A DNA stretch of 64,000 nt from a virus, in IMG/VR virus record IMGVR_UViG_3300045256_000282, positions 1 through 64,000 of that record. One strand, given 5' to 3'. Positions 17,745 to 38,239 of this stretch are shown piece by piece; within the stretch, counting starts at the first letter, position 1, and each line of letters opens with the position of its first letter. Both the position numbers and the translations under genes were made by a program. A model generated the notes under the pieces. It was given only the letters and a program-made list of their open reading frames with translations, was not told the DNA's origin and did no database searches.

Positions 17745-19127
17745 ATGGAACAACTGCAAGCACTCATTAAGGCGCTGGAAGCGGGTAGCTACAATGCTGC
17801 TCCTGGATCTCTGGTTCAGGGCTCAGCATTGCAGCACGAAGATCTCTCTCCAGTCATGCAAAACGTCACTTTTGGTGACGAGCACATCAAGTTGCAGAAG
17901 GCGTTGAAAATCGAAGACGCTAAATCTCAACTTGTTCAATTTAACCGTCAGCTTAGCTACGGTACCTTCGGCGGAAGCGCCCAGTATGAAGGTGGTATTG
18001 GTGAAGAAGACACCAGTGACTACATTCGTGCGGTGGTACCAATGGCCTACTACAGCACGACTCGTCGTGTCACAGTGGCTGCTAACATGATCGGTGCTTT
18101 CGACGGCGTAAAAGCTGAAGATCGCGCATCGGAAGATGCTGCTAAGAAAATCGTTGGCGATATCGAGTTGGACATCCTTAAAGGTATGTCTGATTTCTCT
18201 AACGCTGGTGTTTTCGACGGTAACCCAGGCGCAATTGCTGCCCTCCCGAACATGTTCGGTTTGGATCAGCAAGTTCGCCAATCTGACGCTCAAGCTTCTA
18301 CTCAGGATCTCATGTTCGCTGAGTACGGCTCTGACCAATCGGTCGTTCTTTCGGCTGACGGATCGCTCACGCAATCCATCATCGAAGATTCGGCTGTCCG
18401 TTCAGCAATGAACATGGGTCATGCCGATAAGTTCATGCTTGATCCGATCTCGTTGTCCGCATACAACAAGATCTCTCACGCTAAGGAACGCATCGTTCTC
18501 GCTGGCTCTCCTCAAGAAGCTAGCGGCGCTGCTCTCCGCCAACAGTGGACCAGTTCGGGCGCTGTCAGTCTTGAAGCTTCGCGCTTCATCTCTGGCAAAA
18601 CGCGTCCTGCTAAGGCCCGCGCTGGAAGCCCAGCAGCTCCTGCTGCTCCTTCTGACGCTGCAGTCTTGGCTGCTGGATCGCTGCTCGAAGCTGGTAGCTA
18701 CGTTTATTACGTAACTGCTGCTAACGAGCGTGGTGAATCACTTCGTTCTCCTTCGATTTCTAGCGCTGTAGCTTCGGCTGGCGATGCTGTTGATCTCACG
18801 ATCACGGCTGTTGCTAACGCCAAATACTACAACGTGTATCGTTCGGACGTTGGTGGTTCGGCTGCCGATGCTAAGTTCATCGGTCGCGTGAAGCAAGCCC
18901 TTGGAAACCCTGTGTTCCGTGACCTCGGCAATCGTAGCCCTGGCTCGGTCACTGGCTACCTCCTCCAGATGGACACTTGGTCACTTCATCAGTTGGCTCC
19001 TTACAGCAAGCTCAAACTTGCTGTTAGCGATCTCAGCTTGCCTGAAGCGCACTTCCGTTTCCTCTGCTTGGCTGGTCTCCAACCTCGCAAAAACGTCTTG
19101 ATCGACAATATTGACGGTCAGCTTTAA
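17745..19127 (+). CDS. Major capsid protein (Herelleviridae/SPO1-Twort-like)
   Basis: GSALQHEDL..MQNVTF resembles the Twort/K-like MCP N-terminal motif; internal Ig/Fn3-like insertion; followed by a terminator. Confidence 0.88.
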   Translation: MEQLQALIKALEAGSYNAAPGSLVQGSALQHEDLSPVMQNVTFGDEHIKLQKALKIEDAKSQLVQFNRQLSYGTFGGSAQYEGGIGEEDTSDYIRAVVPMAYYSTTRRVTVAANMIGAFDGVKAEDRASEDAAKKIVGDIELDILKGMSDFSNAGVFDGNPGAIAALPNMFGLDQQVRQSDAQASTQDLMFAEYGSDQSVVLSADGSLTQSIIEDSAVRSAMNMGHADKFMLDPISLSAYNKISHAKERIVLAGSPQEASGAALRQQWTSSGAVSLEASRFISGKTRPAKARAGSPAAPAAPSDAAVLAAGSLLEAGSYVYYVTAANERGESLRSPSISSAVASAGDAVDLTITAVANAKYYNVYRSDVGGSAADAKFIGRVKQALGNPVFRDLGNRSPGSVTGYLLQMDTWSLHQLAPYSKLKLAVSDLSLPEAHFRFLCLAGLQPRKNVLIDNIDGQL

Positions 19128-19243: not shown

Positions 19244-20770
19244 ATGATGAAGGCTAAGGATCAAACTACAGAACGGATCGTTGCAGAAAGGTTTCCCAAA
19301 GGGGATACTGCTGAGAAGATCGCCTTAGATTTGAACCTAACAATATCCGCTATAAATTATCATATTAATAAGCTAAAACTCAGAAAGCCTATAGATAGGT
19401 CCAGACCATGCACAATATGTGGGATTGTCTTTGTACCTAAATATAGCGATGGTGTAAAGAAGAACAAGTATAAAACATGCTCTGTAGAATGTTATAGTGC
19501 ATTCCTGAGTAAGAGCCGTACTAAGTACTCCGAAGATGATATTCAAAAAGTTAAGGACCTAAAGAGTAGGGGTGTTGAAAACTTTTTGATTTCTAAACAA
19601 ACTGGGGTAGACATAAATAAGGTCAAAGAGATAGTAAGGAAAAACAACCTATTCTTAGACACTGCCGTTAAGACTAAAAATTCTCAAAAAGGTAAGGCAT
19701 TAAAAAACCCAGACCATATGTCCCACATGAGAAGCGGCCATATGGAACTTTCTGAGGAACAGTTTTACAAAAAAATTAAACTCATTGAGAAGGACATAGA
19801 ATTAGGTTTAGGCACAGCTTCTGGTTTGGCTGTAAAGTACGGATTGGTACCGGCCTCCGTAGTAGCAGTACTTAATAGGCAGGGAAAGAAGAGCCTTTTA
19901 AACGTCAAGGAGTCAACCGGACAAGTTGGTGTTAAAGAGTTTTTAGAAAGTATTGGCTTAAAAGTTTCCTACAACGACAGGAAAGCAATAAAACCCAAGG
20001 AGATTGACATCTACGTTGAGAGCAAGAAGATCGGTATCGAGTACTGCGGTATATACTGGCACTCAGACCTGTTCATAGACGATAATACCCACCTGGACAA
20101 GATGAAGATGGCCAATGCTGCGGGAATTCGTCTGATAACGATATTTGAGGATGAGTGGTTGAATAGGCAGGATCAGGTTAAGAACTTCCTTAAGGCTACA
20201 CTTGGTGTTAGCGATAGGAAGCTACACGGTCGAAAATGCACCGTTAAGATCATACCTGCCCTTGTCGGTAAGACCTTCATGGAAAACTATCATATACAAG
20301 GTGCTGCCATTAGGAGCATGGTCTATCTAGGGCTTTGGCATGAGGATGAACTGGTAGGTGTTATGAGTCTAGGTAGGCATCATAGGCGCTCAGCTAACGG
20401 TGAAGTGGTGTTGGATAGGTTATGTTTTAAGGATGGGGTTACCGTGTCAGGAGGATCCTCAAAGCTTCTGTGTGTAGCAATAGGGTGGGCTAAAAAACAA
20501 GGTTTTACGAAGATGGTAAGTTGGTCCGACAACAGGTGGTCCCAGGGTGACGTATACCGGGCCTGTGGCTTTAAGCTTGAAGAGGAGCTTAGGAGGGACT
20601 ATAGCTACGTTAAGCAAGCCGGGCGTGTCTCCAAGCAATCCTGCACCAAGGCAGCCTTAGCTAGGCTGGGTGCGGTAGGGGCTACTGAGAAGGAGATGGC
20701 CGAAAGCCTTGGGTATGCTAGGATTTGGGATTGCGGCAAGAAGCGATGGGTACTGGAAATCGAGCAATAA
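19244..20770 (+). CDS. Hef-like PD-(D/E)XK homing endonuclease with N-terminal HTH/Zn finger and C-terminal Mom/GNAT-like domain
   Basis: CTIC..CSVEC, EIDIYV..IGIEYCGIYWHS, IFEDEW, GGSSKLL, WSDNRWS, IWDCGK; own extended -10 (TGaTATACT, 19231-19239). Confidence 0.75.
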   Translation: MMKAKDQTTERIVAERFPKGDTAEKIALDLNLTISAINYHINKLKLRKPIDRSRPCTICGIVFVPKYSDGVKKNKYKTCSVECYSAFLSKSRTKYSEDDIQKVKDLKSRGVENFLISKQTGVDINKVKEIVRKNNLFLDTAVKTKNSQKGKALKNPDHMSHMRSGHMELSEEQFYKKIKLIEKDIELGLGTASGLAVKYGLVPASVVAVLNRQGKKSLLNVKESTGQVGVKEFLESIGLKVSYNDRKAIKPKEIDIYVESKKIGIEYCGIYWHSDLFIDDNTHLDKMKMANAAGIRLITIFEDEWLNRQDQVKNFLKATLGVSDRKLHGRKCTVKIIPALVGKTFMENYHIQGAAIRSMVYLGLWHEDELVGVMSLGRHHRRSANGEVVLDRLCFKDGVTVSGGSSKLLCVAIGWAKKQGFTKMVSWSDNRWSQGDVYRACGFKLEEELRRDYSYVKQAGRVSKQSCTKAALARLGAVGATEKEMAESLGYARIWDCGKKRWVLEIEQ

Positions 20771-23387: not shown

Positions 23388-24446
23388 ATGAGAAACCTAG
23401 TTTCAAGACCACACATCATTCTTTCGGTAGAAAATCCGGGTTACCCCGCATCTTCTCCCGTATCTCACGATGTGGCCGTTAAGAGTCTAGAAAAATTAGG
23501 TGGTGGCAAGGTTCATACGATCAAAGGGCATTACGGGAAGCCTGAGCAGAGTATCTTGATAAGCGATCCTAGTGACGAGCAGGCGCAGTTTGCAAGGCAC
23601 CTTGCCCACTCTACCGGGCAGGAATCCCACATAGAGAGTGACGGACATAGTCACAAGATGTATTTTAATAACGGACCTAAGGCTGGCTCTATCGTACATG
23701 GTCGCGGAACTAAGTGGCACTCAAAGGCACCAAAAGACTACTTCACCACCCTTCCGTCTGGGGAAACTTTTACTCATAACTTTGAGATGGAGAAGGCTGA
23801 AAAAACACCGGGCTCAGGTGTAAAGATTAATCCTCAGCATGGAGCACAGATTGCTCAGGCATATGAAAGCATGAAACATGACCCTTCTCATCCCGATGTT
23901 AAGGCGGCGTATGGGGCACTTATAAGCGAGACTAAGGATCAGTTCAAAAAGATCTTGGGTTCTGGATTTAAGATTTCTAAGATAAAACCAGGCCAGGCAA
24001 ACCCATACAAAACTTCTAAAGATATGCATCACGATATAGAACACAACAAGCATCTTTGGTATTTTCCAACAGAGGCTGGGTTTGGTTCTAGTGATCAATC
24101 AAGTTCTGATCATCCCATGCTTGCGCCTACGGAGTTTACACACGGAGATCACAAGCTTCTTGCTAATGACATGTTCAGGATAGTACATGACATAAATGGG
24201 CACCATCTGGGTGGAAAAAGTGGATTTGGTCCAAAGGGAGAGCATGAGGCATACCTTCATCACAAGACTATGTACTCACCTATGGCAGGGAAGGCTTTGG
24301 CTACCGAAACGATGGGACAAAATAATACAGTTAATTTTGGACGTCATGGTGAAAATAATCGTAAGAATCCTTCTAAAACGATATATGCTGATCAAAAAGC
24401 TGGACTTTTGCCTGATAACATCATAAACGGAGATTGGCACAAATGA
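23388..24446 (+). CDS. Two-domain putative internal head protein: SAM-lyase/DUF3293-like N-domain plus HDxxGH metallo-domain
   Basis: ILSVENP..GHYGKPEQSILI..GQES; MEKA linker; FRIVHDINGH..GE..LATETMGQN. Confidence 0.55.
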   Translation: MRNLVSRPHIILSVENPGYPASSPVSHDVAVKSLEKLGGGKVHTIKGHYGKPEQSILISDPSDEQAQFARHLAHSTGQESHIESDGHSHKMYFNNGPKAGSIVHGRGTKWHSKAPKDYFTTLPSGETFTHNFEMEKAEKTPGSGVKINPQHGAQIAQAYESMKHDPSHPDVKAAYGALISETKDQFKKILGSGFKISKIKPGQANPYKTSKDMHHDIEHNKHLWYFPTEAGFGSSDQSSSDHPMLAPTEFTHGDHKLLANDMFRIVHDINGHHLGGKSGFGPKGEHEAYLHHKTMYSPMAGKALATETMGQNNTVNFGRHGENNRKNPSKTIYADQKAGLLPDNIINGDWHK

Positions 24447-26878
24447 AACACCGTCATTACCGTAGGATGATGTCCGATTCCTTAAAAGAGATACAGGATC
24501 TTGATAAGGCAGATGTAAAAATCTCAGAAAAAGATTTTGTTGATGAGCATAAGAAGCTTTTAGATGTACTTGAACATCCTACTAAGAAAAAACTTAAAGA
24601 AGAGGCCAAAGATCAGGGTAAGGAACTTAAAGAAGAACTTGCTAAAGCCCCAATCGCATACCACGGCAGCACCGTTCCTTTTGAGGAACATGCGAAGCCT
24701 AAGAAGGACCCTAAGAGTCAACTTAACTATGGACCCGGCATATACTACGCTACGGACCCCGAAGAAGCTTCTAGTTACGCAGAGCCTCAGATTGCTAGGA
24801 TCAATGATCACTCTAGCGCACTTACTGAGGTTCAAAAAGAGCCCGGATATAGAGAATACCGCGACTCTGTTGCATCTAAGATGGGGTTGTCTAGCTCCGT
24901 AGATACGAAACATAAAAACTGGGATAAATTTGCAGATCATATGCTTTCTTACGACAAGCAGAAGATCAACGAAAAGCTTAAGCTTGCTCCAAACGTAAGG
25001 CGATCGGATGTTCAAGTTAATAAACCTTTTGATCCCTACAACAAGAAACACGCGCTAGCAGTCTATCAGGCACTAGGCATAGAACCAGACCACTTCAGGC
25101 TTGGTCAGGAGCATAAGGCCGGTTCCAACCTTTATGGACAGATCGCAAACCACGATAAGTTTGACAATCTAAAGTGGGGAGAAAAAACTCATAAAGTAAA
25201 TCAGGCAATAAAAAGAGCTGGGTTTGACGGTATCCACGACAAGAAGCTCGGGCACATTATCGCTTTTGACCCTAAGCAGATCAAGCCAGCATATGGTGCT
25301 GCTAAAAAACCTAAGAAGCTTGCCGCATCTGAGCTTGAGAAGTCTAAAAACGTTCGCGAACAGCGAAAGAAGGTGTTCGGTACTGACGCGAATGCTCCTA
25401 GAACGTCTGAGAAGCGCATGAAGATGATGCAGATGATTAGACAATACGCTCAAAAGAAGTACGGCCTTCCTCTTGTAACAGCTTCTGGTAAGAGAGATGA
25501 GTCCGGTAAGCTTAAGGAGCAAAAAGGAATTGAGGGTCAGCCTTACGACGTATTTACTCCTAAAGGCGTGGCTCAAGAAAAGAAGCGCCTGGCTCAGATT
25601 AAAGAAAAAGGAACCAAGCGAGTAGATCCAAAACCTGACTGGCGTTCTGGTCAGCTTGAGACTCAGCCGTCTCCAGATGCTGCCGTACACGAGCTTTCAC
25701 ATCTTGACCTTGCTCCAGAGGGTATGACGGCTCCAAAATTTCAAACTGAGATGGATCGTCTTTGGGGAGATTCTCAAAGCAAATACGGTCATATGCAGCA
25801 AAAGAAGACTCGCGGTGAAATTCAGCCGATGTCTATCGAAAATCCAATACGAAGAGAAATGGGCCTACCCGCTAATAAGCAAACAAAACCAGTTACTGCT
25901 AACCAGTCAGTTCTTGATGACCCTACTGGAAAAGAAAAACGTTTTGTTGAAGGTAAAGATGCTAACGGCAAAAAAGCTTTTTACGATCGTCAATCTAGGC
26001 TTCAAAATCAAGATACTAAAGACAGACGACAGCAGATTCAAGAAGGAAGCTTAAAATTTCATCCTGAAAAGGGATGGCAACAAGCTTCGGACACCAATGC
26101 CCTTATTAATTTGAGGGGTAGAGGTTTGAAGGAAGAGGCTGCAAACAGACTTAAGGCAAGGCTTGGATTTCAGTCCCAACCAAAGAAGTTGGCGGCAAGT
26201 GAAGATTTAAAAAAAGAACAGTGGGAAAGAAAAAGAACAGGATCTTCTCTTAACCCTTTGCACGGCGTAATATCGCCGGAAGGAAAGTTTTATCCTATGA
26301 ATGCAGATGAGATGCATTCTAACAAGATAATTCAAGCAAGTCTCCCTCCTTACGCCAAGGTTAGCTATACGCCTGGCGAGCTTGAAAACGAAGTAAACAA
26401 AAAGATGGGCGAAGGATGGATTTCTGTTGGAACCGCTGGGGAACCTAGCTTCATCGGACACTCTTCTGTATTAAGCAACCCAAGACATCCCGCCACCGCC
26501 GCACTTAGGGGTCTTATTCGTGAAGCTCAAAATGATCCAAAAAACACCGCTGGTTTTTGGACTGGTCATGTTGAAGTTTCTCATAGTGACAAGAAGCCCA
26601 TCAAGGGTGCAGAAACTCTTGAGCACGCCCCTCATGTGGGTTATGTAAGTGCTGATCACTTTGTCAGGCACGGCACGTTTAAGCCACACAAAGATTTGGG
26701 ACGATCCGAAATTGAAAAAAGCTGGTCGGCAAAGCTTGCAGCGAAATACAAGGCCCAAAGACCTCAAACTCCTCAAGAAATTAAAGAATCAAAAGAAAAA
26801 CACAAGAAGGCAATGGAAGCTGCACTGGCTGCTATAGACAAGATCAAAAAGCCAACTAAGCCTGGAGGTCAGAAATGA
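24434..26878 (+). CDS. Polyvalent multi-domain protein: ART-like domain, HExxH zincin, unknown domain
   Basis: AYHGS..GPGIYYATDPEEASSYA..GFDGI..AFDPKQIK; AVHELSH..ENPIRREMGLP; repeated PKKLAASE linker. Confidence 0.65.
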   Translation: MAQMKHRHYRRMMSDSLKEIQDLDKADVKISEKDFVDEHKKLLDVLEHPTKKKLKEEAKDQGKELKEELAKAPIAYHGSTVPFEEHAKPKKDPKSQLNYGPGIYYATDPEEASSYAEPQIARINDHSSALTEVQKEPGYREYRDSVASKMGLSSSVDTKHKNWDKFADHMLSYDKQKINEKLKLAPNVRRSDVQVNKPFDPYNKKHALAVYQALGIEPDHFRLGQEHKAGSNLYGQIANHDKFDNLKWGEKTHKVNQAIKRAGFDGIHDKKLGHIIAFDPKQIKPAYGAAKKPKKLAASELEKSKNVREQRKKVFGTDANAPRTSEKRMKMMQMIRQYAQKKYGLPLVTASGKRDESGKLKEQKGIEGQPYDVFTPKGVAQEKKRLAQIKEKGTKRVDPKPDWRSGQLETQPSPDAAVHELSHLDLAPEGMTAPKFQTEMDRLWGDSQSKYGHMQQKKTRGEIQPMSIENPIRREMGLPANKQTKPVTANQSVLDDPTGKEKRFVEGKDANGKKAFYDRQSRLQNQDTKDRRQQIQEGSLKFHPEKGWQQASDTNALINLRGRGLKEEAANRLKARLGFQSQPKKLAASEDLKKEQWERKRTGSSLNPLHGVISPEGKFYPMNADEMHSNKIIQASLPPYAKVSYTPGELENEVNKKMGEGWISVGTAGEPSFIGHSSVLSNPRHPATAALRGLIREAQNDPKNTAGFWTGHVEVSHSDKKPIKGAETLEHAPHVGYVSADHFVRHGTFKPHKDLGRSEIEKSWSAKLAAKYKAQRPQTPQEIKESKEKHKKAMEAALAAIDKIKKPTKPGGQK

Positions 26879-30733: not shown

Positions 30734-31642
30734 ATGAAGATCACAGCTTCTGCAGAACAGTTCCTTTCTAAGGCGCTGGGCCAAGATGGCCTAGATGCAC
30801 TGCAGAAGTCTGAGCTTTTTAAGCTAAAGGCCAATAAGGTCGTTCCTATAGACGAGATCAAGACTGCTATGCAGATCGTACCTCGGACTGTAATCACACT
30901 ACTCCACAAAGAACTTGGCGCGATGAAGATCGGTGAAGGCAAGGACGTAGTTCTTCCAGTTCAACCAGAAGCCATCTTACATGTAACCAAATACGACAAC
31001 GACGTTTATAGCGGGGATATCCATAGACCTGGAAACGTTATGGCTAAGTTTCAAGATCGATCACTCCCTGGCGTTGGTTTGATCATCATGTCTACTTTTG
31101 AGCTTTACGATGTATCAGACCTAGCATCGGCAGCTCCAAGCTCCGTGCCTAGCTTAGAAGAGGCTAACGTTCAAAAGATCATTGATGAAAGAATGGGCCT
31201 ACGAGATCTTGTAAGACAAGTAGTTGACCAAAGAATTACGGAAAGAGAAGCGATTGACAGCATCATAAGGATGAGGTTAACTCAAGCTATGGCCGAAGCT
31301 ACTCAAAAAAAAACAGAAAAGCCTGAAGAGGCACCTATGGAATCTAAAAAACCTACGAGTAAGCTTAAAGAGTTTATTGAACGAAGAGCTAGGAAAGCTC
31401 CTAAAGAATTTCAGATCAGCATGGCTAAGAACGAAACCGTTGTATGTGAAGATTGTAAAAAAGAGATCTTCACCAAAGGCGCGTTCTCTGGCTGCATCTG
31501 CTATGGTGACGATCGAAACAACAAGATCTTCATTACTAAGAATGAGAACGGATTTACTATGCGGTTTCCTCGTAGTTGGGATGTGGAAAACGTCCAGATG
31601 CTTTTGGAAACTTTGCGAGATAAGAACAGGGGTTCCAAATGA
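30734..31642 (+). CDS. Hypothetical head protein with C-terminal CxxC...CxC zinc-ribbon-like motif
   Basis: LSKAL, LQKSE, MAKNE motifs; CEDC..GCIC. Confidence 0.7.
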   Translation: MKITASAEQFLSKALGQDGLDALQKSELFKLKANKVVPIDEIKTAMQIVPRTVITLLHKELGAMKIGEGKDVVLPVQPEAILHVTKYDNDVYSGDIHRPGNVMAKFQDRSLPGVGLIIMSTFELYDVSDLASAAPSSVPSLEEANVQKIIDERMGLRDLVRQVVDQRITEREAIDSIIRMRLTQAMAEATQKKTEKPEEAPMESKKPTSKLKEFIERRARKAPKEFQISMAKNETVVCEDCKKEIFTKGAFSGCICYGDDRNNKIFITKNENGFTMRFPRSWDVENVQMLLETLRDKNRGSK

Positions 31643-33114
31643 ACAGATTATTCGTAGCTTTTGATGGCGATAATATGGGCTCACAAGTTGGTCAGGCTGT
31701 CCTTATGGACGATGCTCAACAACTTCACGAGATCTCTCGTCGAATTGATAGCGCTGGACGAGCGATACAGGATTGGGTGGAATCTAACGGAGGCCAGATG
31801 GTCTCGGTTGGTGGGGATGAAGGAACTTTTGTTATCGATCCTTCTATGGAAGAACATCTTGAGGAGTTGAGAGGAGTTTACCAACAGATCAGTGGTGGTA
31901 CCGTAACGTTTGGCGTAGGATACTCTCTAAGTCAAGCCGGTAAGGCTTTGATGGCTGGAAAACTTATGGGAAAAGATATTCTGGTTAGGTATGACGACCA
32001 GGTAGACCACATCCTTTCTGATGCGCATGATCAGGTTCAAACTGGTGGTGGAAGTCCCGAAGCTCAGAAACAAGATGAGCATTATCTTAGCCACGTTGTG
32101 CTAGGCGATGCTGGAAACGGCGAAGAGGATGTTAGCCAAGAATCTGCTGATGAATACGACATGGCTCCAACCTCTAATTCTCCAGATGACCAAGAAATTA
32201 CTCCTGAAGGCGCTGCTGCCGCACAAGAGATGGTAGATGACGCAGCAAATTCAGAAGGCTGCAATTGTCCTGCTTGCCAAGAGCGCCATGCTATGGAGGC
32301 TCAGGGTCAGGGGCCGGAAGAAGAAGCAACTGAGGGTTGCGATTGTCCTGCTTGCCAAGAGCGTCATGCTATGGAGAGTGGTGCTGAAGAGCCTATGCCA
32401 GAGATGGCTACTCAGAATGAAGAAGATCTTCCAGAACAAGACTCTATGCAGATGATTCCAGATGCTCAAGCTGAGGGTTCGGACCTTCCTCCTATGCAGA
32501 TGCCAGAATCTCAAGAAGATCCTCAAAGCGCTATGGGAGAAATGGGCGAAGAAGATGCTATCGAGATTCCAGAGAACGAGTCTTTAGACGAGCAAAAAGA
32601 TCCAGAAGAGATGGTTGCTGCCGCAGTAGGGCCTAATGAAGATCCTGAGCAAGAGGGCGCTGTTCCTGAAGAAAACATGTCAGAAGACGGCTTTCCAGGC
32701 GCAATTCCTGGTGAAGGTGAAGAACCCGTAAATCAAGAAGATCTAGAAGAGATGCAAGATCCTTCAAACGAACAGATGCCTCCCCAACAAGACATGGGAG
32801 CCATGGGTGAATCCCAGGAACAACCTGGGGACCTAGACCTATTGTCCGAACTTTTATCAGATGCAGGATCTACTGATGAGCTTAAACAAAGAATTGCAGC
32901 TATACTTGAAAAGTTTAAAGCGAACAGGGATTCAATCATCTCGATGAAAGATCAGAACCCCGAGATGTACCAATCGATCATACTCATGCTTAAGCAGATG
33001 ATCGACATGGCGAGACATCTAGCCCCATCATCGCCAGAGGAAGATATGCCTCAAGATGAGCAGTCTGTTCCAGAGGAAGCTTCTCAGGAGGAAGCACCTC
33101 TCCCAAAACAGTAG
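31639..33114 (+). CDS. mCpol (minimal CRISPR polymerase / GGDEF-like) nucleotide cyclase domain plus long acidic tail
   Basis: FVAFDGDNMG..VGGDEG..TVTFGVGYSLSQAGKALMAGKLMGKD in the first ~120 aa. Confidence 0.8.
   Translation: MNRLFVAFDGDNMGSQVGQAVLMDDAQQLHEISRRIDSAGRAIQDWVESNGGQMVSVGGDEGTFVIDPSMEEHLEELRGVYQQISGGTVTFGVGYSLSQAGKALMAGKLMGKDILVRYDDQVDHILSDAHDQVQTGGGSPEAQKQDEHYLSHVVLGDAGNGEEDVSQESADEYDMAPTSNSPDDQEITPEGAAAAQEMVDDAANSEGCNCPACQERHAMEAQGQGPEEEATEGCDCPACQERHAMESGAEEPMPEMATQNEEDLPEQDSMQMIPDAQAEGSDLPPMQMPESQEDPQSAMGEMGEEDAIEIPENESLDEQKDPEEMVAAAVGPNEDPEQEGAVPEENMSEDGFPGAIPGEGEEPVNQEDLEEMQDPSNEQMPPQQDMGAMGESQEQPGDLDLLSELLSDAGSTDELKQRIAAILEKFKANRDSIISMKDQNPEMYQSIILMLKQMIDMARHLAPSSPEEDMPQDEQSVPEEASQEEAPLPKQ
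32254..32376 (+). repeat. Two 45-bp direct repeats encoding EGCxCPACQERHAME
   Basis: Copies at 32254-32298 and 32332-32376. Confidence 0.9.
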
Positions 33115-33314
33115 GGTCGGTAGAAAAAGGCGGGAAACTGCCGACCAAGCAAACAACTCGCCACGTAGCAAGAACTAGACAACCCGAAGGTGCTATTAAC
33201 CGTAAGGGTTTTGAAAAAGTCATCGATAACGAGACTGGCAAAACTAGATGGGTAGATCGTAAGAAGCCTGTTGCCCTTGACCTACAGGGCGATCCTACTC
33301 ACGAGAGATTCTAA
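33102..33314 (+). other. Programmed -1 ribosomal frameshift signal and 70-codon -1 frame extension of the mCpol protein
   Basis: C CCA AAA (33102-33108), 6-nt spacer, stem 33115-33123/33138-33146, loop GGCGGG pairing with CTCGCC at 33157-33162; -1 frame open to TAA 33312-33314, which overlaps the next ATG. Confidence 0.8.
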
Positions 33315-34066
33315 TGAACCTTAAGTTTTTTGTTAACGCAGATGATATAGCCAACGAGATGAAGGCTTTTAAAGAAGAGGCTAAGCAGGCGATAGAAGAG
33401 TCTGTTAAGCAACTATCTGCGATGACGCACGCTAAGGTTGTTGAGCTTGCACAAGAAAAGTTAAAAAGTACACGCAAGATCTATACCGACAATTTGGATT
33501 ATCAAGAGCTTGTCCCAGGCTTGTGGGTTGTTAGTTTAGATCAGCCAGCGTTGTGGATCGAAGAAGGCCGTAAATCTGGGGACATGACACAAGACCTGCT
33601 CAAGACTGGCGCTCACATAGCTAAAGATGGAAGTCGATATAAGGCGATTCCTTTTGATCACGGTAAGCCTCCATCTCAGATGGACCCCTTCAGCAGAAAC
33701 TTGGTGGCAAAGATCAAGTCTGAGCTTAAGAAAGCAAACATACCCTTTAAGAAGCTTGAGCTTAACGCAGATGGAAGTCCGAGGATAGGTCGGCTTCATA
33801 CCATGAACATCTCTAGTCCTCACCCAAGCTCGAGGGCTAGTCATCCGGCACTTTCTGGTTTGACCATATATCAAACAAAAGGTGCAAATGGCAAGGTTCG
33901 TCGCGATATAATGACCTTTAGAATGGTAAGCGATAAACATAAAGGCTCTAAGTGGATTCATCCTGGAAGAGACGCCGAGGGCTTCTTTGAAAAAGCTTTA
34001 CAGTGGGCCGAAGATCAGTGGGAAAGAGAGATCCTACCTCAGATCATGGCGAGGTTTGACAAATGA
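33314..34066 (+). CDS. Probable neck/tail-completion protein (HK97 gp10-like)
   Basis: WIEEG, FRMVSDK..SKWIHPG; position. Confidence 0.6.
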   Translation: MNLKFFVNADDIANEMKAFKEEAKQAIEESVKQLSAMTHAKVVELAQEKLKSTRKIYTDNLDYQELVPGLWVVSLDQPALWIEEGRKSGDMTQDLLKTGAHIAKDGSRYKAIPFDHGKPPSQMDPFSRNLVAKIKSELKKANIPFKKLELNADGSPRIGRLHTMNISSPHPSSRASHPALSGLTIYQTKGANGKVRRDIMTFRMVSDKHKGSKWIHPGRDAEGFFEKALQWAEDQWEREILPQIMARFDK

Positions 34067-36085: not shown

Positions 36086-38239
36086 ATGGCACAACGACTA
36101 ACTACCTCGTTTATCAACACGGTAATTCCTGGAGCTTATCCGAATGTTTCGGTTAAGTCTGTACCAGTAGGCGTAGCAAGCACTGGGGTAATCGCGATCA
36201 TCGGCGAAGCAGCCGGTGGAGCTGATTTCTCAAGCGAAGATATCAAGAACAACTTTTTTACTCCCGATCAAGCTGATCGCGTAGCTGCTAAGTATGTTTC
36301 TGGACCTATCGTCGATGCTATGCGAGCCCTCGCAGCACCGTCTGCGGACGCAAACATTGCTGGATCTGCAACCCGTATCTTTATCGTCAAAACAAACGCT
36401 GGCGACAAGGCTTCGGCGATTGTTGATACAGATTTTGGATCTCTTTCTGCTAAGAACTTTGGTATCGGTGGAAACCAGATCAAGTACAAGATCGTAGCTA
36501 GCCAGCTTGAAGATACTCCTGAAACGACCTCTTCGGTTGCCATCCCTGCTTTCGGGGCTGCGCTGGATGGCTTGAGCTTCTCGATCAGATTAAACGGTGG
36601 AGCTGTCAGTGTTGTAACTTTAAGCAACACCCCTGCTAACCACTCTAACATCGCGACTCTTGTCACTGAACTGGCTGGACTCCTTCCTTCTGGAATCTCA
36701 GCGAGTGCTGGTACTGCGGCAAATACACTTAAGTTAAAAATCGACACGGACAGCGCTAACTATCGCAAAGGCTGGGGAAAAAGCTTTGAGCTTATCGACT
36801 CTACGCCTGGCGATTTAGATCTGGTTAAACTTGCTCCTGGCTTGTTTAGCAGTGCTTCTGAGTCTGCTGTTGAGATTAACGTAGTTCGTCAAGATGCTGG
36901 ATTAAACGAAACTCTTGAAGCAAAGGGTGAAGTTGCCCTCCAAGTGGGTTATTTGGGCACTACAGCTACCCTGACTATTGCTGGAAGCACGCTTTCAACG
37001 GTGGTTACTGGTGGAGCTGGCGCAGCTCTGAGCGTAGACCTAAGCTCTTTCAGTACGGTTGCAGATCTTGCAGCTTTCATCGCAAGCAAGCCAGGCTACT
37101 CGGCATCTGCCTCAGCTTTGGCTCAGCAGATGAAACCTGCTGACCTTGATAGGGTTTCGGCTATTGGTATCTGCTCTAGCGGAGCTGGACTCAAGGCTGG
37201 ACGAGTTAAAAAATCTCTTGCAAACGTTAAAGCCGCCATCGCAACAAGCGCTGCTGTTGACCTAGAGCCAACCGCTACGGCTGGTCTTCCTTCTCCGATT
37301 TCAAGCTTCAGCTTCTTGTCGGGTGGAGCAAAAGGTAGTACTAGCGGTGCAGATATCGTAGACGCCTTAGGTAAGCTTGAAGCTGTTGTGGTGAACTTCA
37401 TTGTTCCTCTTTTCAGCCAAGACGCTTCTGACGATATTGCTGAAGGTTTGACCGACTCAGCTTCTACTTATACGATCGACGCAATTCACGCTGCTGTTAA
37501 ATCGCATGTATTGAAGATGAGCGTTCCTAGCTTGAAGCGCTACCGTTTGGCAGTACTTTCTTACTTCGGTTCTTATGCAAACGCTAAGACCAAGGCTCAA
37601 ACTCTGGCTAATTATCGATGCAGCATGACTTTCCAAAAAGTCAGCGAAGTTGATAGTCAAGGGTCTGTTGTTGAGTTTCAACCTTGGATGGGAGCTTGTT
37701 TGGCTGCAGGAATGCAGGCTGCTGGTTTCTACAAAGGAATCACTAACAAGTTTGCAAACTTGATCAGCTTTAAAGATCCTAGCGGATTTGACAGCGGAAG
37801 TCCTGGTGACGTGGAAGACGCGTTACTTGCTGGCTTACTCATCCTTCAGCGCGAAACGGCTGGAAGTAAATGGGTATCTGACCAAACGACGTATGGTTTT
37901 GATACTAACTTCGTTTACAACAGTTTGCAGGCAACATACCTTGCAGATATCGTAGCGGCTGACTTGGCAGATTCGTTGCAAAGAGCTTTCGTTGGTCAAT
38001 CATTGGCTGACGTCGACGCTGCAACGGCTTTGGCTTTTATCGCTACTAAGATGGAAGAGTATCGTCGAATCAAAGCTATTACTGGCGATGATGAGGCACC
38101 TCTTGGATACCGTAACGCTAAGGTCAAGATTTCTGGACCAACCATGTCGGTTGCTATTGAAATTAAGCTAAGCACAACGATCTACTTCATCCCGATCGAA
38201 CTGACGATCTCTCAAGTTCAGTCATCGGCTAGTCAGTAA
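36086..38239 (+). CDS. Tail sheath protein
   Basis: IPGAY..GVIAIIGEAAGG N-terminus; sheath-like C-terminus; 717 aa; precedes tube. Confidence 0.9.
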   Translation: MAQRLTTSFINTVIPGAYPNVSVKSVPVGVASTGVIAIIGEAAGGADFSSEDIKNNFFTPDQADRVAAKYVSGPIVDAMRALAAPSADANIAGSATRIFIVKTNAGDKASAIVDTDFGSLSAKNFGIGGNQIKYKIVASQLEDTPETTSSVAIPAFGAALDGLSFSIRLNGGAVSVVTLSNTPANHSNIATLVTELAGLLPSGISASAGTAANTLKLKIDTDSANYRKGWGKSFELIDSTPGDLDLVKLAPGLFSSASESAVEINVVRQDAGLNETLEAKGEVALQVGYLGTTATLTIAGSTLSTVVTGGAGAALSVDLSSFSTVADLAAFIASKPGYSASASALAQQMKPADLDRVSAIGICSSGAGLKAGRVKKSLANVKAAIATSAAVDLEPTATAGLPSPISSFSFLSGGAKGSTSGADIVDALGKLEAVVVNFIVPLFSQDASDDIAEGLTDSASTYTIDAIHAAVKSHVLKMSVPSLKRYRLAVLSYFGSYANAKTKAQTLANYRCSMTFQKVSEVDSQGSVVEFQPWMGACLAAGMQAAGFYKGITNKFANLISFKDPSGFDSGSPGDVEDALLAGLLILQRETAGSKWVSDQTTYGFDTNFVYNSLQATYLADIVAADLADSLQRAFVGQSLADVDAATALAFIATKMEEYRRIKAITGDDEAPLGYRNAKVKISGPTMSVAIEIKLSTTIYFIPIELTISQVQSSASQ

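What the first reader, a model, noticed from the sequence alone, without database searches (positions are those of the whole stretch)
33102..33314. Canonical programmed -1 frameshift with H-type pseudoknot extends the mCpol protein
Seen: slippery heptamer C CCA AAA (33102-33108) one codon before the TAG; 6-nt spacer; stem 1 GGTCGGTAG (33115-33123) / CTGCCGACC (33138-33146); loop GGCGGG (33129-33134) can pair with CTCGCC (33157-33162). The -1 frame has no ATG but is open for 70 codons (PKTVGSVEKGGKLPTK...THERF), fills the otherwise empty 200-nt gap, and its TAA overlaps the next ATG (TAATG). Known: CCCAAAA is a documented -1 site in phage structural genes. Inference: two isoforms are made, and the longer one gains a basic module behind a VEK|G site resembling the head-protease motif, perhaps controlling how much cyclase is packaged.
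Basis: partly seen in the sequence, partly recalled or inferred. Interest (0 to 1): 0.8.

Follow-up and report, generated by a model that had tools for sequence, protein, structure and literature searches.

The report
Conserved -1 frameshift in phage mCpol gene
A late gene of an uncultured 149-kb phage very probably makes a 491-residue and a 558-residue protein from one message, because some ribosomes slip back one base at a signal built like the E. coli dnaX site; the mechanism is textbook, but this gene family (a Cas10-like mCpol enzyme on an acidic carrier) is not described as recoded.

Summary
An in-phase C_CCA_AAA heptamer (33102-33108) is followed by a 6-nt spacer holding the TAG, a 9-bp hairpin (33115-33146) and a start-less -1 ORF of 70 codons whose TAA overlaps the next ATG.

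Relatives make a programmed -1 frameshift very likely.
- All 24 related metagenomic loci examined put the same ~70-aa basic module in the -1 frame behind an mCpol gene.
- Each has an in-phase V_VVA_AAN heptamer. The codon before it always ends in the matching base although its amino acid varies.
- The hairpin starts 6 nt downstream in nearly all, with compensatory changes.
- Other relatives, including Myxococcus phage Mx1, carry the module fused in frame. The frameshift/fused state changed at least 2-3 times.

Not supported: the H-type pseudoknot (stem 2 pairs in 18-34% of cells across relatives), and the VEK|G protease site and packaging-control idea (untested).

The scan found the same frameshift in at least five other genomes. 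I reached my reading before seeing those notes. Mechanism ordinary; gene family new.

The parts
31639..33114 (+). Zero-frame gene, 491 aa, pI 4.05. It has an N-terminal mCpol domain, an acidic low-complexity linker with two C-x-C-x-x-C knuckles, and a conserved helical region (aa 401-462). The stop is TAG 33112-33114.
   Evidence: (PF18182, 55 bits against a cut-off of 26.4)
31651..31992 (+). mCpol (minimal CRISPR polymerase / Cas10 palm-like) domain with DGDNMG (aa 9) and GGDEG (aa 58) motifs
33086..33091 (+). Internal Shine-Dalgarno-like element AGGAGG, 10 nt before the heptamer; proposed upstream frameshift stimulator
   Evidence: anti-SD duplex -10.3 kcal/mol; positional peak at offset -16 in 20 of 23 loci, mean dG -6.1 against background -0.14.
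33102..33108 (+). Slippery heptamer C_CCA_AAA in X_XXY_YYZ phase
   Evidence: Relatives carry CCCAAAG, CCCAAAA, CCCAAAC, AAAAAAA or AAAAAAG in the same phase.
33109..33114 (+). 6-nt spacer CAGTAG containing the zero-frame stop codon
33115..33146 (+). Stimulatory hairpin: 9-bp stem (33115-33123 with 33138-33146) and 14-nt loop. The 3' arm encodes the invariant L-P-T of the extension.
   Evidence: MFE; 85.6% of cells paired and 3 pairs with compensatory changes, against 16-45% in slid controls. RNAalifold finds the same helix independently.
33108..33314 (+). -1-frame extension: 68 aa after the shared Pro-Lys (pI 10.2), then TAA 33312-33314. The trans-frame product is 558 aa, about 60.7 kDa.
33129..33162 (+). 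Pairing is possible here but not conserved in the family.
33314..34066 (+). Next gene (250 aa, phrog_16819, unknown function). Its start overlaps the stop of the -1 ORF, and it is syntenic in all relatives.

Best explanation
The gene is expressed through a programmed -1 ribosomal frameshift of the dnaX type.

Mechanism (inferred):
- Ribosomes translating the mCpol gene reach C_CCA_AAA with tRNA-Pro in the P site and tRNA-Lys in the A site.
- A hairpin that begins 6 nt downstream slows translocation.
- An AGGAGG 10 nt upstream can pair with the anti-SD of 16S rRNA.
- A fraction of ribosomes slip back one base (CCA to CCC, AAA to AAA) and continue in the -1 frame.

Products:
- Non-shifted ribosomes read one more codon (Gln) and stop. 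They make a 491-aa, very acidic protein: mCpol domain, acidic linker, helical region.
- Shifted ribosomes make a 558-aa protein, ...APLPK-TVGSVEK...HERF, that carries a conserved 68-aa basic module.

What is shown: the signal anatomy, its conservation, coding selection on the -1 frame, and natural in-frame fusions.

What is inferred: that slippage occurs, and its ratio.

Likely purpose (inference, about 35-40%): the helical region plus basic module is an old 'carrier' end of this head-to-neck gene. It ties the protein to a partner in the particle or to nucleic acid, and the frameshift fixes the ratio of tethered to free mCpol protein.
For: 1. Frame arrangement. In 22 IMG/VR loci (19 different contigs) plus L031 and L033, the conserved module lies in the -1 frame relative to a long ORF with an N-terminal mCpol domain. 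No usable start codon precedes the conserved L-P-x-K-x-T-T-x-H block in most loci.
2. Heptamer. Every locus has an in-phase heptamer of the class most efficient in E. coli, V_VVA_AAR (PMC4066793). The overlap is as short as 13-16 nt in L006 and L026, which pins the shift site. The preceding codon encodes L, I, D, A or S but always ends in C.
3. Hairpin. It starts 6 nt after the heptamer. 85.6% of cells are paired, with compensatory CG/UA changes, against 16-45% in slid controls. RNAalifold finds the same helix. In L033 the hairpin follows the heptamer although it lies elsewhere relative to the module.
4. Upstream SD-like element. There is a positional peak of anti-SD complementarity, and this phage's genes use SD sites: 21 of 26 starts against 22% of random positions.
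5. Coding selection in the -1 frame. Differences by codon position are 0.36 / 0.33 / 0.62.
6. Natural in-frame fusions. Syntenic orthologues carry mCpol and the module in one ORF, including cultured phage Mx1. Fused junctions lack a strong hairpin.
7. Tree. The frameshift/fused state changed at least 2-3 times.
Against: - No protein, ribosome-profiling or reporter data exist, and the phage is uncultured.
- The window's hairpin alone is only modestly better than shuffles (z -2.0).
- The 3' arm of the hairpin encodes invariant residues, so part of its conservation is due to the protein.
- One relative (L022) has its hairpin about 17 nt from the heptamer and no SD-like element.
- The loci are related, so counts are not independent.
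- The efficiency, and therefore the isoform ratio, is unknown.
- The function of the module is unknown: no Pfam, PDB or fold match.
Confidence: 0.9

Rival explanations
1. The 70-codon ORF is a separate small gene. It would be translated by its own initiation, or by termination-reinitiation coupled to the mCpol stop.
For: Gene callers list short stand-alone versions of 33-96 aa. In L031 an ATG overlaps the TGA stop as ATGA. An SD-like element lies upstream.
Against: - The window and most relatives have no ATG, GTG or TTG before the invariant block.
- The SD-like element sits about 19 nt before the ATG in L031, too far for initiation. In L033 the ATG has no SD and lies 10 codons inside an open -1 frame that still starts at a heptamer plus hairpin.
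- In-frame fusions show that the module belongs to the same polypeptide.
Confidence: 0.03
2. The frame break is a sequencing or assembly indel, or a disabling mutation (pseudogene), not a programmed event.
For: Homopolymer runs (A4-A7) are indel-prone. Fused versions exist in relatives.
Against: - The same -1 arrangement occurs in 20+ independent assemblies whose nucleotide sequences differ.
- The module stays under purifying selection across a clade with about 45-65% amino-acid identity.
- Heptamer, spacer, hairpin and SD-like element are conserved at the RNA level.
Confidence: 0.02
3. The frame change is made by RNA polymerase slippage on the A run (one extra A in part of the transcripts), not by the ribosome.
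For: Some relatives have A7 or A6G runs (L007, L022-L026).
Against: - The window and most relatives have only A3-A4 inside CCCAAAG/A, far shorter than known slippage tracts (my knowledge of dnaX in Thermus and of IS elements).
- The conserved phase of the heptamer, the C before CCA, the 6-nt spacer and the hairpin are features of tandem tRNA slippage.
Confidence: 0.03
4. One reading: the stimulator in this phage is an H-type pseudoknot (stem 2 = 33129-33134 with 33157-33162) rather than a plain hairpin.
For: - The 6-bp pairing exists, and the loop lengths (5, 3 and 10 nt) are sterically plausible.
- The nearest relative L031 can form the equivalent pairing, with G.U changed to G-C.
Against: - Stem 2 columns pair in only 18% and 34% of cells over 17 relatives.
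- Relatives with Lys instead of Arg in T-T-[KR]-H lack the G+C-rich partner.
- 5% of shuffles reach 6 bp.
- RNAalifold predicts no second helix, though it cannot draw pseudoknots.
Confidence: 0.15

Closest known systems
E. coli dnaX (tau/gamma) programmed -1 frameshift
   Same: Tripartite signal: an internal SD-like element about 10 nt upstream, an X_XXA_AAR heptamer read by tRNA-Lys in the A site, and a stem-loop about 6 nt downstream (PMC6787027).
   Different: - In dnaX the shifted ribosomes stop almost at once, so the frameshift product is the short form. Here the shifted product is the long form with an added 68-aa module.
- The heptamer is C_CCA_AAA rather than A_AAA_AAG.
- The gene is unrelated.
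Phage T7/T3 gene 10A/10B and other 3'-end frameshifts of phage structural genes
   Same: A -1 slip near the 3' end of a late gene adds a C-terminal extension to a fraction of the molecules. The result is two isoforms with a common N-terminal body (my knowledge; the review PMC5009743 was listed but not read).
   Different: The gene is not a capsid protein. The signal includes an SD-like element. Relatives toggle between the frameshift form and an in-frame fusion.
Tail assembly chaperone G/GT frameshift of long-tailed phages
   Same: A conserved -1 frameshift in the virion gene block that yields a short and a long form in a fixed ratio (PMC10885494).
   Different: The position is wrong: this gene lies upstream of the sheath gene (36086-38239), not between the tube and tape-measure genes. 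There is no sequence similarity.
Panoptes mCpol (OptS), Pfam PF18182
   Same: The N-terminal 114 aa match the family above the curated cut-off, and the D-x-D and GGDE motifs are present.
   Different: - It is phage-encoded among head-to-neck genes, with no 2TM-beta or CARF effector next to it.
- It is fused to a long acidic carrier.
- The papers read mention no phage mCpol and no frameshift.

Membership tests
Programmed -1 ribosomal frameshift, tandem-slippage type | X_XXY_YYZ heptamer in the zero-frame phase inside the 0/-1 overlap | tested here: met
   all 23 loci. L031 and L033.
Programmed -1 ribosomal frameshift, tandem-slippage type | Downstream RNA structure 5-9 nt after the heptamer, supported by covariation | tested here: met
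   The 6-nt spacer is seen in nearly all loci; L022 is an outlier.
Programmed -1 ribosomal frameshift, tandem-slippage type | The -1 ORF is under protein-coding selection and lacks its own initiation site | tested here: met
Programmed -1 ribosomal frameshift, tandem-slippage type | A trans-frame protein is actually produced | not testable with these tools
   Needs a reporter assay, MS or ribosome profiling. Natural in-frame fusions are indirect support.
dnaX-type tripartite signal | SD-like element about 10 nt 5' of the heptamer | tested here: met
H-type pseudoknot stimulator | A second helix between the hairpin loop and downstream sequence, kept across relatives | tested here: not met
   18-34% of cells paired; 5% of shuffles reach 6 bp
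mCpol (PF18182) | Profile match above the curated cut-off, with palm-domain acidic motifs | tested here: met
mCpol (PF18182) | Nucleotide cyclase or polymerase activity | not testable with these tools
   The motif varies in relatives: GGDQ, SGSDE, and lost in Mx1.
Panoptes defence system | mCpol gene adjacent to a 2TM-beta or CARF-TM effector | tested here: not met
   The neighbours are virion-block genes.
Tail assembly chaperone G/GT | Location between the tail tube and tape-measure genes | tested here: not met
   The gene lies upstream of sheath 36086-38239.

The most novel reading that the evidence does not exclude
The conserved C-terminal part (helical region plus basic module) is a virion-anchoring carrier, and mCpol is swappable cargo; some orthologues lack mCpol altogether. 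On this reading the frameshift doses how many enzyme molecules are tethered in the particle and delivered with the DNA. There the phage's own Cas10-like cyclase would supply or mimic the nucleotide signal that host guard systems such as Panoptes monitor.
Probability: 0.15. Interest if true: 0.85.

Novelty: new member of a known kind. Interest (0 to 1): 0.5.

Why it matters
- Annotation. It adds a well-supported, deeply conserved recoding site outside the usual phage cases (tail chaperone, capsid). Gene callers miss it: they leave a 200-nt 'gap' or call a spurious small ORF.
- Evolution. The family shows repeated switching between a frameshift and an in-frame fusion. That makes it a natural system for asking why a fixed isoform ratio is selected.
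- Biology. The recoded gene is a phage copy of mCpol, the signal synthase of the recently described Panoptes defence. Knowing that it is made in two forms, one with a basic tail, is needed for any test of what a phage does with such an enzyme.

Tried and rejected
- INPHARED phage records: no DNA match. No protein match for the module or for the mCpol protein. Only the next gene finds Mx1, at 33% identity.
- GTDB genome contigs: no relative of the module.
- Function of the module:
  - Pfam and PHROGs give nothing.
  - The PDB sequence search gives only chance beta-hairpin matches.
  - The AF2 model (pLDDT 73; extended chain plus one beta-hairpin) has no Foldseek hit below E = 2.
  - The ESM Atlas gives nothing.
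  - A WW-domain likeness (weak profile hits to WW-repeat proteins; WW chains top the non-significant Foldseek list) is too weak to use.
- Rfam: no family in 32900-33500.
- Pseudoknot: tested and not conserved.
- VEK|G protease site: lies in unconserved columns, and the motif is expected by chance at this length (my estimate). Not pursued.
- A trans-frame protein could not be handed to the structure tool, because a -1 join is not a letter-for-letter translation. It was left out.

Full report
**1. Observation**

The window is part of a 149-kb IMG/VR virus record, estimated 93% complete.

- ORF 31639-33114 (+) encodes 491 aa. The first 114-118 residues match Pfam mCpol (PF18182, E 1e-14, 55 bits against a cut-off of 26.4) and carry DGDNMG and GGDEG motifs.
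- After the domain come a very acidic low-complexity stretch, a helical region (aa 401-462) and the end ...APLPKQ*.
- The last codons are CTC CCA AAA CAG TAG, so C_CCA_AAA (33102-33108) is in the X_XXY_YYZ phase.
- Six nucleotides later a 9-bp stem (33115-33123 with 33138-33146) forms in the minimum-energy fold: -17.2 kcal/mol, z -2.0.
- The -1 frame is open from 33060 to 33314, has no ATG, GTG or TTG, and its TAA overlaps the ATG of the next gene.

The heptamer string by itself is not unusual: 11 copies in the window against 12.5 expected.

**2. Relatives**

The 69-aa -1 peptide and the next gene recovered related IMG/VR contigs. A profile of four peptides then recovered 22 loci from 19 contigs.

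- In every locus the conserved peptide lies in the -1 frame relative to a long upstream ORF that stops a few codons into the overlap.
- All ten upstream ORFs tested begin with an mCpol domain.
- The peptide alignment has invariant L-P-x-K-x-T-T-x-H, G, K, T-G and D..G positions.
- Differences between loci fall on codon positions 1/2/3 of the -1 frame at 0.36 / 0.33 / 0.62, the signature of a translated frame.

**3. Shift site**

- Every locus has an in-phase heptamer in the overlap. Most have CCCAAAG. The others are CCCAAAA (window, L031, L033), CCCAAAC (L021), AAAAAAA (L007) and AAAAAAG (L022-L026).
- The overlap is only 13 nt in L006 and 16 nt in L026, which leaves essentially no other place to change frame.
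- The codon before CCA encodes Leu, Ile, Asp, Ala or Ser in different loci but always ends in C. Selection therefore acts on the nucleotide, not the residue.
- In the bodies of the same genes, in-phase heptamers occur at 0.66% of codons. That gives a 3-23% chance per locus, yet all 21 non-redundant loci have one. The loci are related, so this is not a true probability.
- C_CCA_AAG, A_AAA_AAG and the V_VVA_AAR class in general are the most frameshift-prone heptamers measured in E. coli (PMC4066793).

**4. Downstream structure**

- Single-sequence folds place a hairpin starting 6 nt after the heptamer in nearly all loci.
- On a 17-sequence alignment the 9-bp helix is paired in 85.6% of cells, with both-sides changes at three pairs (CG/UA, UA/CG). 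With the 3' partner slid by 1-3 columns only 16-45% pair.
- RNAalifold, which was not told the structure, predicts the same helix and nothing else.
- The 3' arm encodes the invariant Leu-Pro-Ala/Thr, so part of its constancy is protein-driven. However, the 5' arm, which encodes variable residues, tracks the Pro-Thr (CCGACC) versus Pro-Ala (CCAGCC) versus CCCGCC versions.
- In L033 the hairpin sits right after the heptamer although the module starts about 10 codons further on. The hairpin therefore follows the heptamer, not the protein motif.
- L022 is an exception: its hairpin lies about 17 nt away.

**5. Pseudoknot**

It disappears where the T-T-R-H codons become T-T-K-H. In the window, 5% of shuffled downstream sequences reach the same 6 bp. 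The nearest relative L031 could also form it, so a lineage-specific pseudoknot cannot be excluded. It is not a conserved part of the signal.

**6. Upstream element**

- The window has AGGAGG at 33086-33091, 10 nt before the heptamer, with an anti-SD duplex of -10.3 kcal/mol.
- Across 23 loci, complementarity to the anti-SD peaks sharply for 8-nt windows starting 18-14 nt before the heptamer. Mean dG is -6.1 at -16, against a background of -0.14 (SD 0.57; lowest positional mean -1.63) over the preceding 200 positions of the same acidic, GAG-rich region. 20 of 23 loci are at or below -4, against at most 6 at any background position.
- The phage's own genes use SD sites.
- With the heptamer and the hairpin this makes the three-part signal known from E. 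coli dnaX (PMC6787027; PMC10885494).
- It is not a ribosome-binding site for the small ORF. No start codon lies at initiation distance, and in L031 the only ATG is about 19 nt away.

**7. Fused forms**

- A profile search for longer proteins found 11 proteins of 451-739 aa with the module at the extreme C-terminus. Most have an mCpol domain at the N-terminus.
- The exhaustive search found 70 representatives, roughly a third of them long fused forms.
- Their loci have the same gene order as the window: a ~300-aa gene, the mCpol gene, a ~250-aa gene, a ~335-aa gene, then sheath and tube.
- At the fused junction of L027 there is no hairpin (-2.7 kcal/mol).
- The only cultured relative is Myxococcus phage Mx1. 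Its orthologue WNM70340 is fused in frame and has a degenerate mCpol domain: 21 bits, GGDE lost.
- The short 'stand-alone' entries in the database are gene-caller starts inside the -1 ORF. L031 and L033 still have the heptamer, the spacer and the hairpin.
- On a tree of the mCpol domain (38 rows) the frameshift/fused label needs three changes, at least two of them forced by well-supported branches. Deep branches are fused, one large clade is frameshifted, and a nested group has reverted to a fusion. The root is the midpoint and Mx1 is a long branch, so the direction of change is tentative.

**8. Products and likely role**

- Tandem slippage gives ...APLPK|TVGSVEK...HERF, 558 aa. The 68 added residues have pI 10.2, on a body of pI 4.05.
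- The module is predicted as an extended chain with one beta-hairpin (pLDDT 73). It matches nothing known.
- One syntenic orthologue (P0010 in L035) has the linker, the helical region and the module but no mCpol domain. The C-terminal part is therefore the constant core of this head-to-neck gene, and mCpol is an add-on.
- I infer, without proof, that the C-terminal part tethers the protein to a partner or to nucleic acid, and that the frameshift sets the tethered-to-free ratio.

**9. Known or new**

The mechanism is standard. The papers on mCpol/Panoptes that I read do not mention phage-encoded mCpol or a frameshift, and Rfam has no family here. Earlier notes of this scan report the same frameshift in at least five other genomes, with the same dnaX-like reading. 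I saw them after completing the analysis above, and they agree with it.

**Verdict:** a real, conserved, dnaX-type -1 frameshift in a gene family not described as recoded. The pseudoknot and protease-site readings are not supported.

Noticed in passing
L035:4001-5356 (protein P0010); also P0011, P0031, P0033, P0035, P0042: Syntenic orthologues have the Cys-knuckle linker, the helical region and the C-terminal module but no mCpol domain. mCpol therefore looks like a dispensable N-terminal add-on to a conserved carrier.
   Followed up: partly
window 31810-31824 (GGDEG); L005, P0006, L023-L026, L034:4556-5962: The palm-domain motif varies among relatives: GGDE (window), GGDQ (L005, P0006), SGSDE (L023-L026, P0005-P0009), and lost in Mx1. 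Not all family members may be active enzymes.
   Followed up: partly
window 32260-32301 and 32338-32379: Two near-identical C-x-C-x-x-C-Q-E-R-H-A-M-E knuckles lie inside the acidic linker. Relatives carry several C-P-Y-C repeats at the same place, so these may be zinc knuckles.
   Followed up: no
window 19244-20770: A 508-aa homing or HNH endonuclease gene (phrog_3339, E 3e-91) sits directly after the major head protein gene (17745-19127).
   Followed up: no
L003:6734-7687 (-) and L029:10353-11192 (-): A GIY-YIG endonuclease gene on the opposite strand is inserted right after the 250-aa gene in two relatives, but not in the window.
   Followed up: no
L022:2962-3060: Outlier frameshift site: A_AAA_AAG with no SD-like element and a hairpin about 17 nt downstream. 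The upstream ORF is 838 aa.
   Followed up: partly
L023, L024, L026 (upstream ORFs) and P0005, P0007: This subgroup has a DUF5661 domain (PF18905) just after the mCpol domain, and a Cys-rich basic region before the module.
   Followed up: no
window 24434-26878: An 814-aa protein has a sub-threshold ART-PolyVal match (25 bits against a cut-off of 31).
   Followed up: partly
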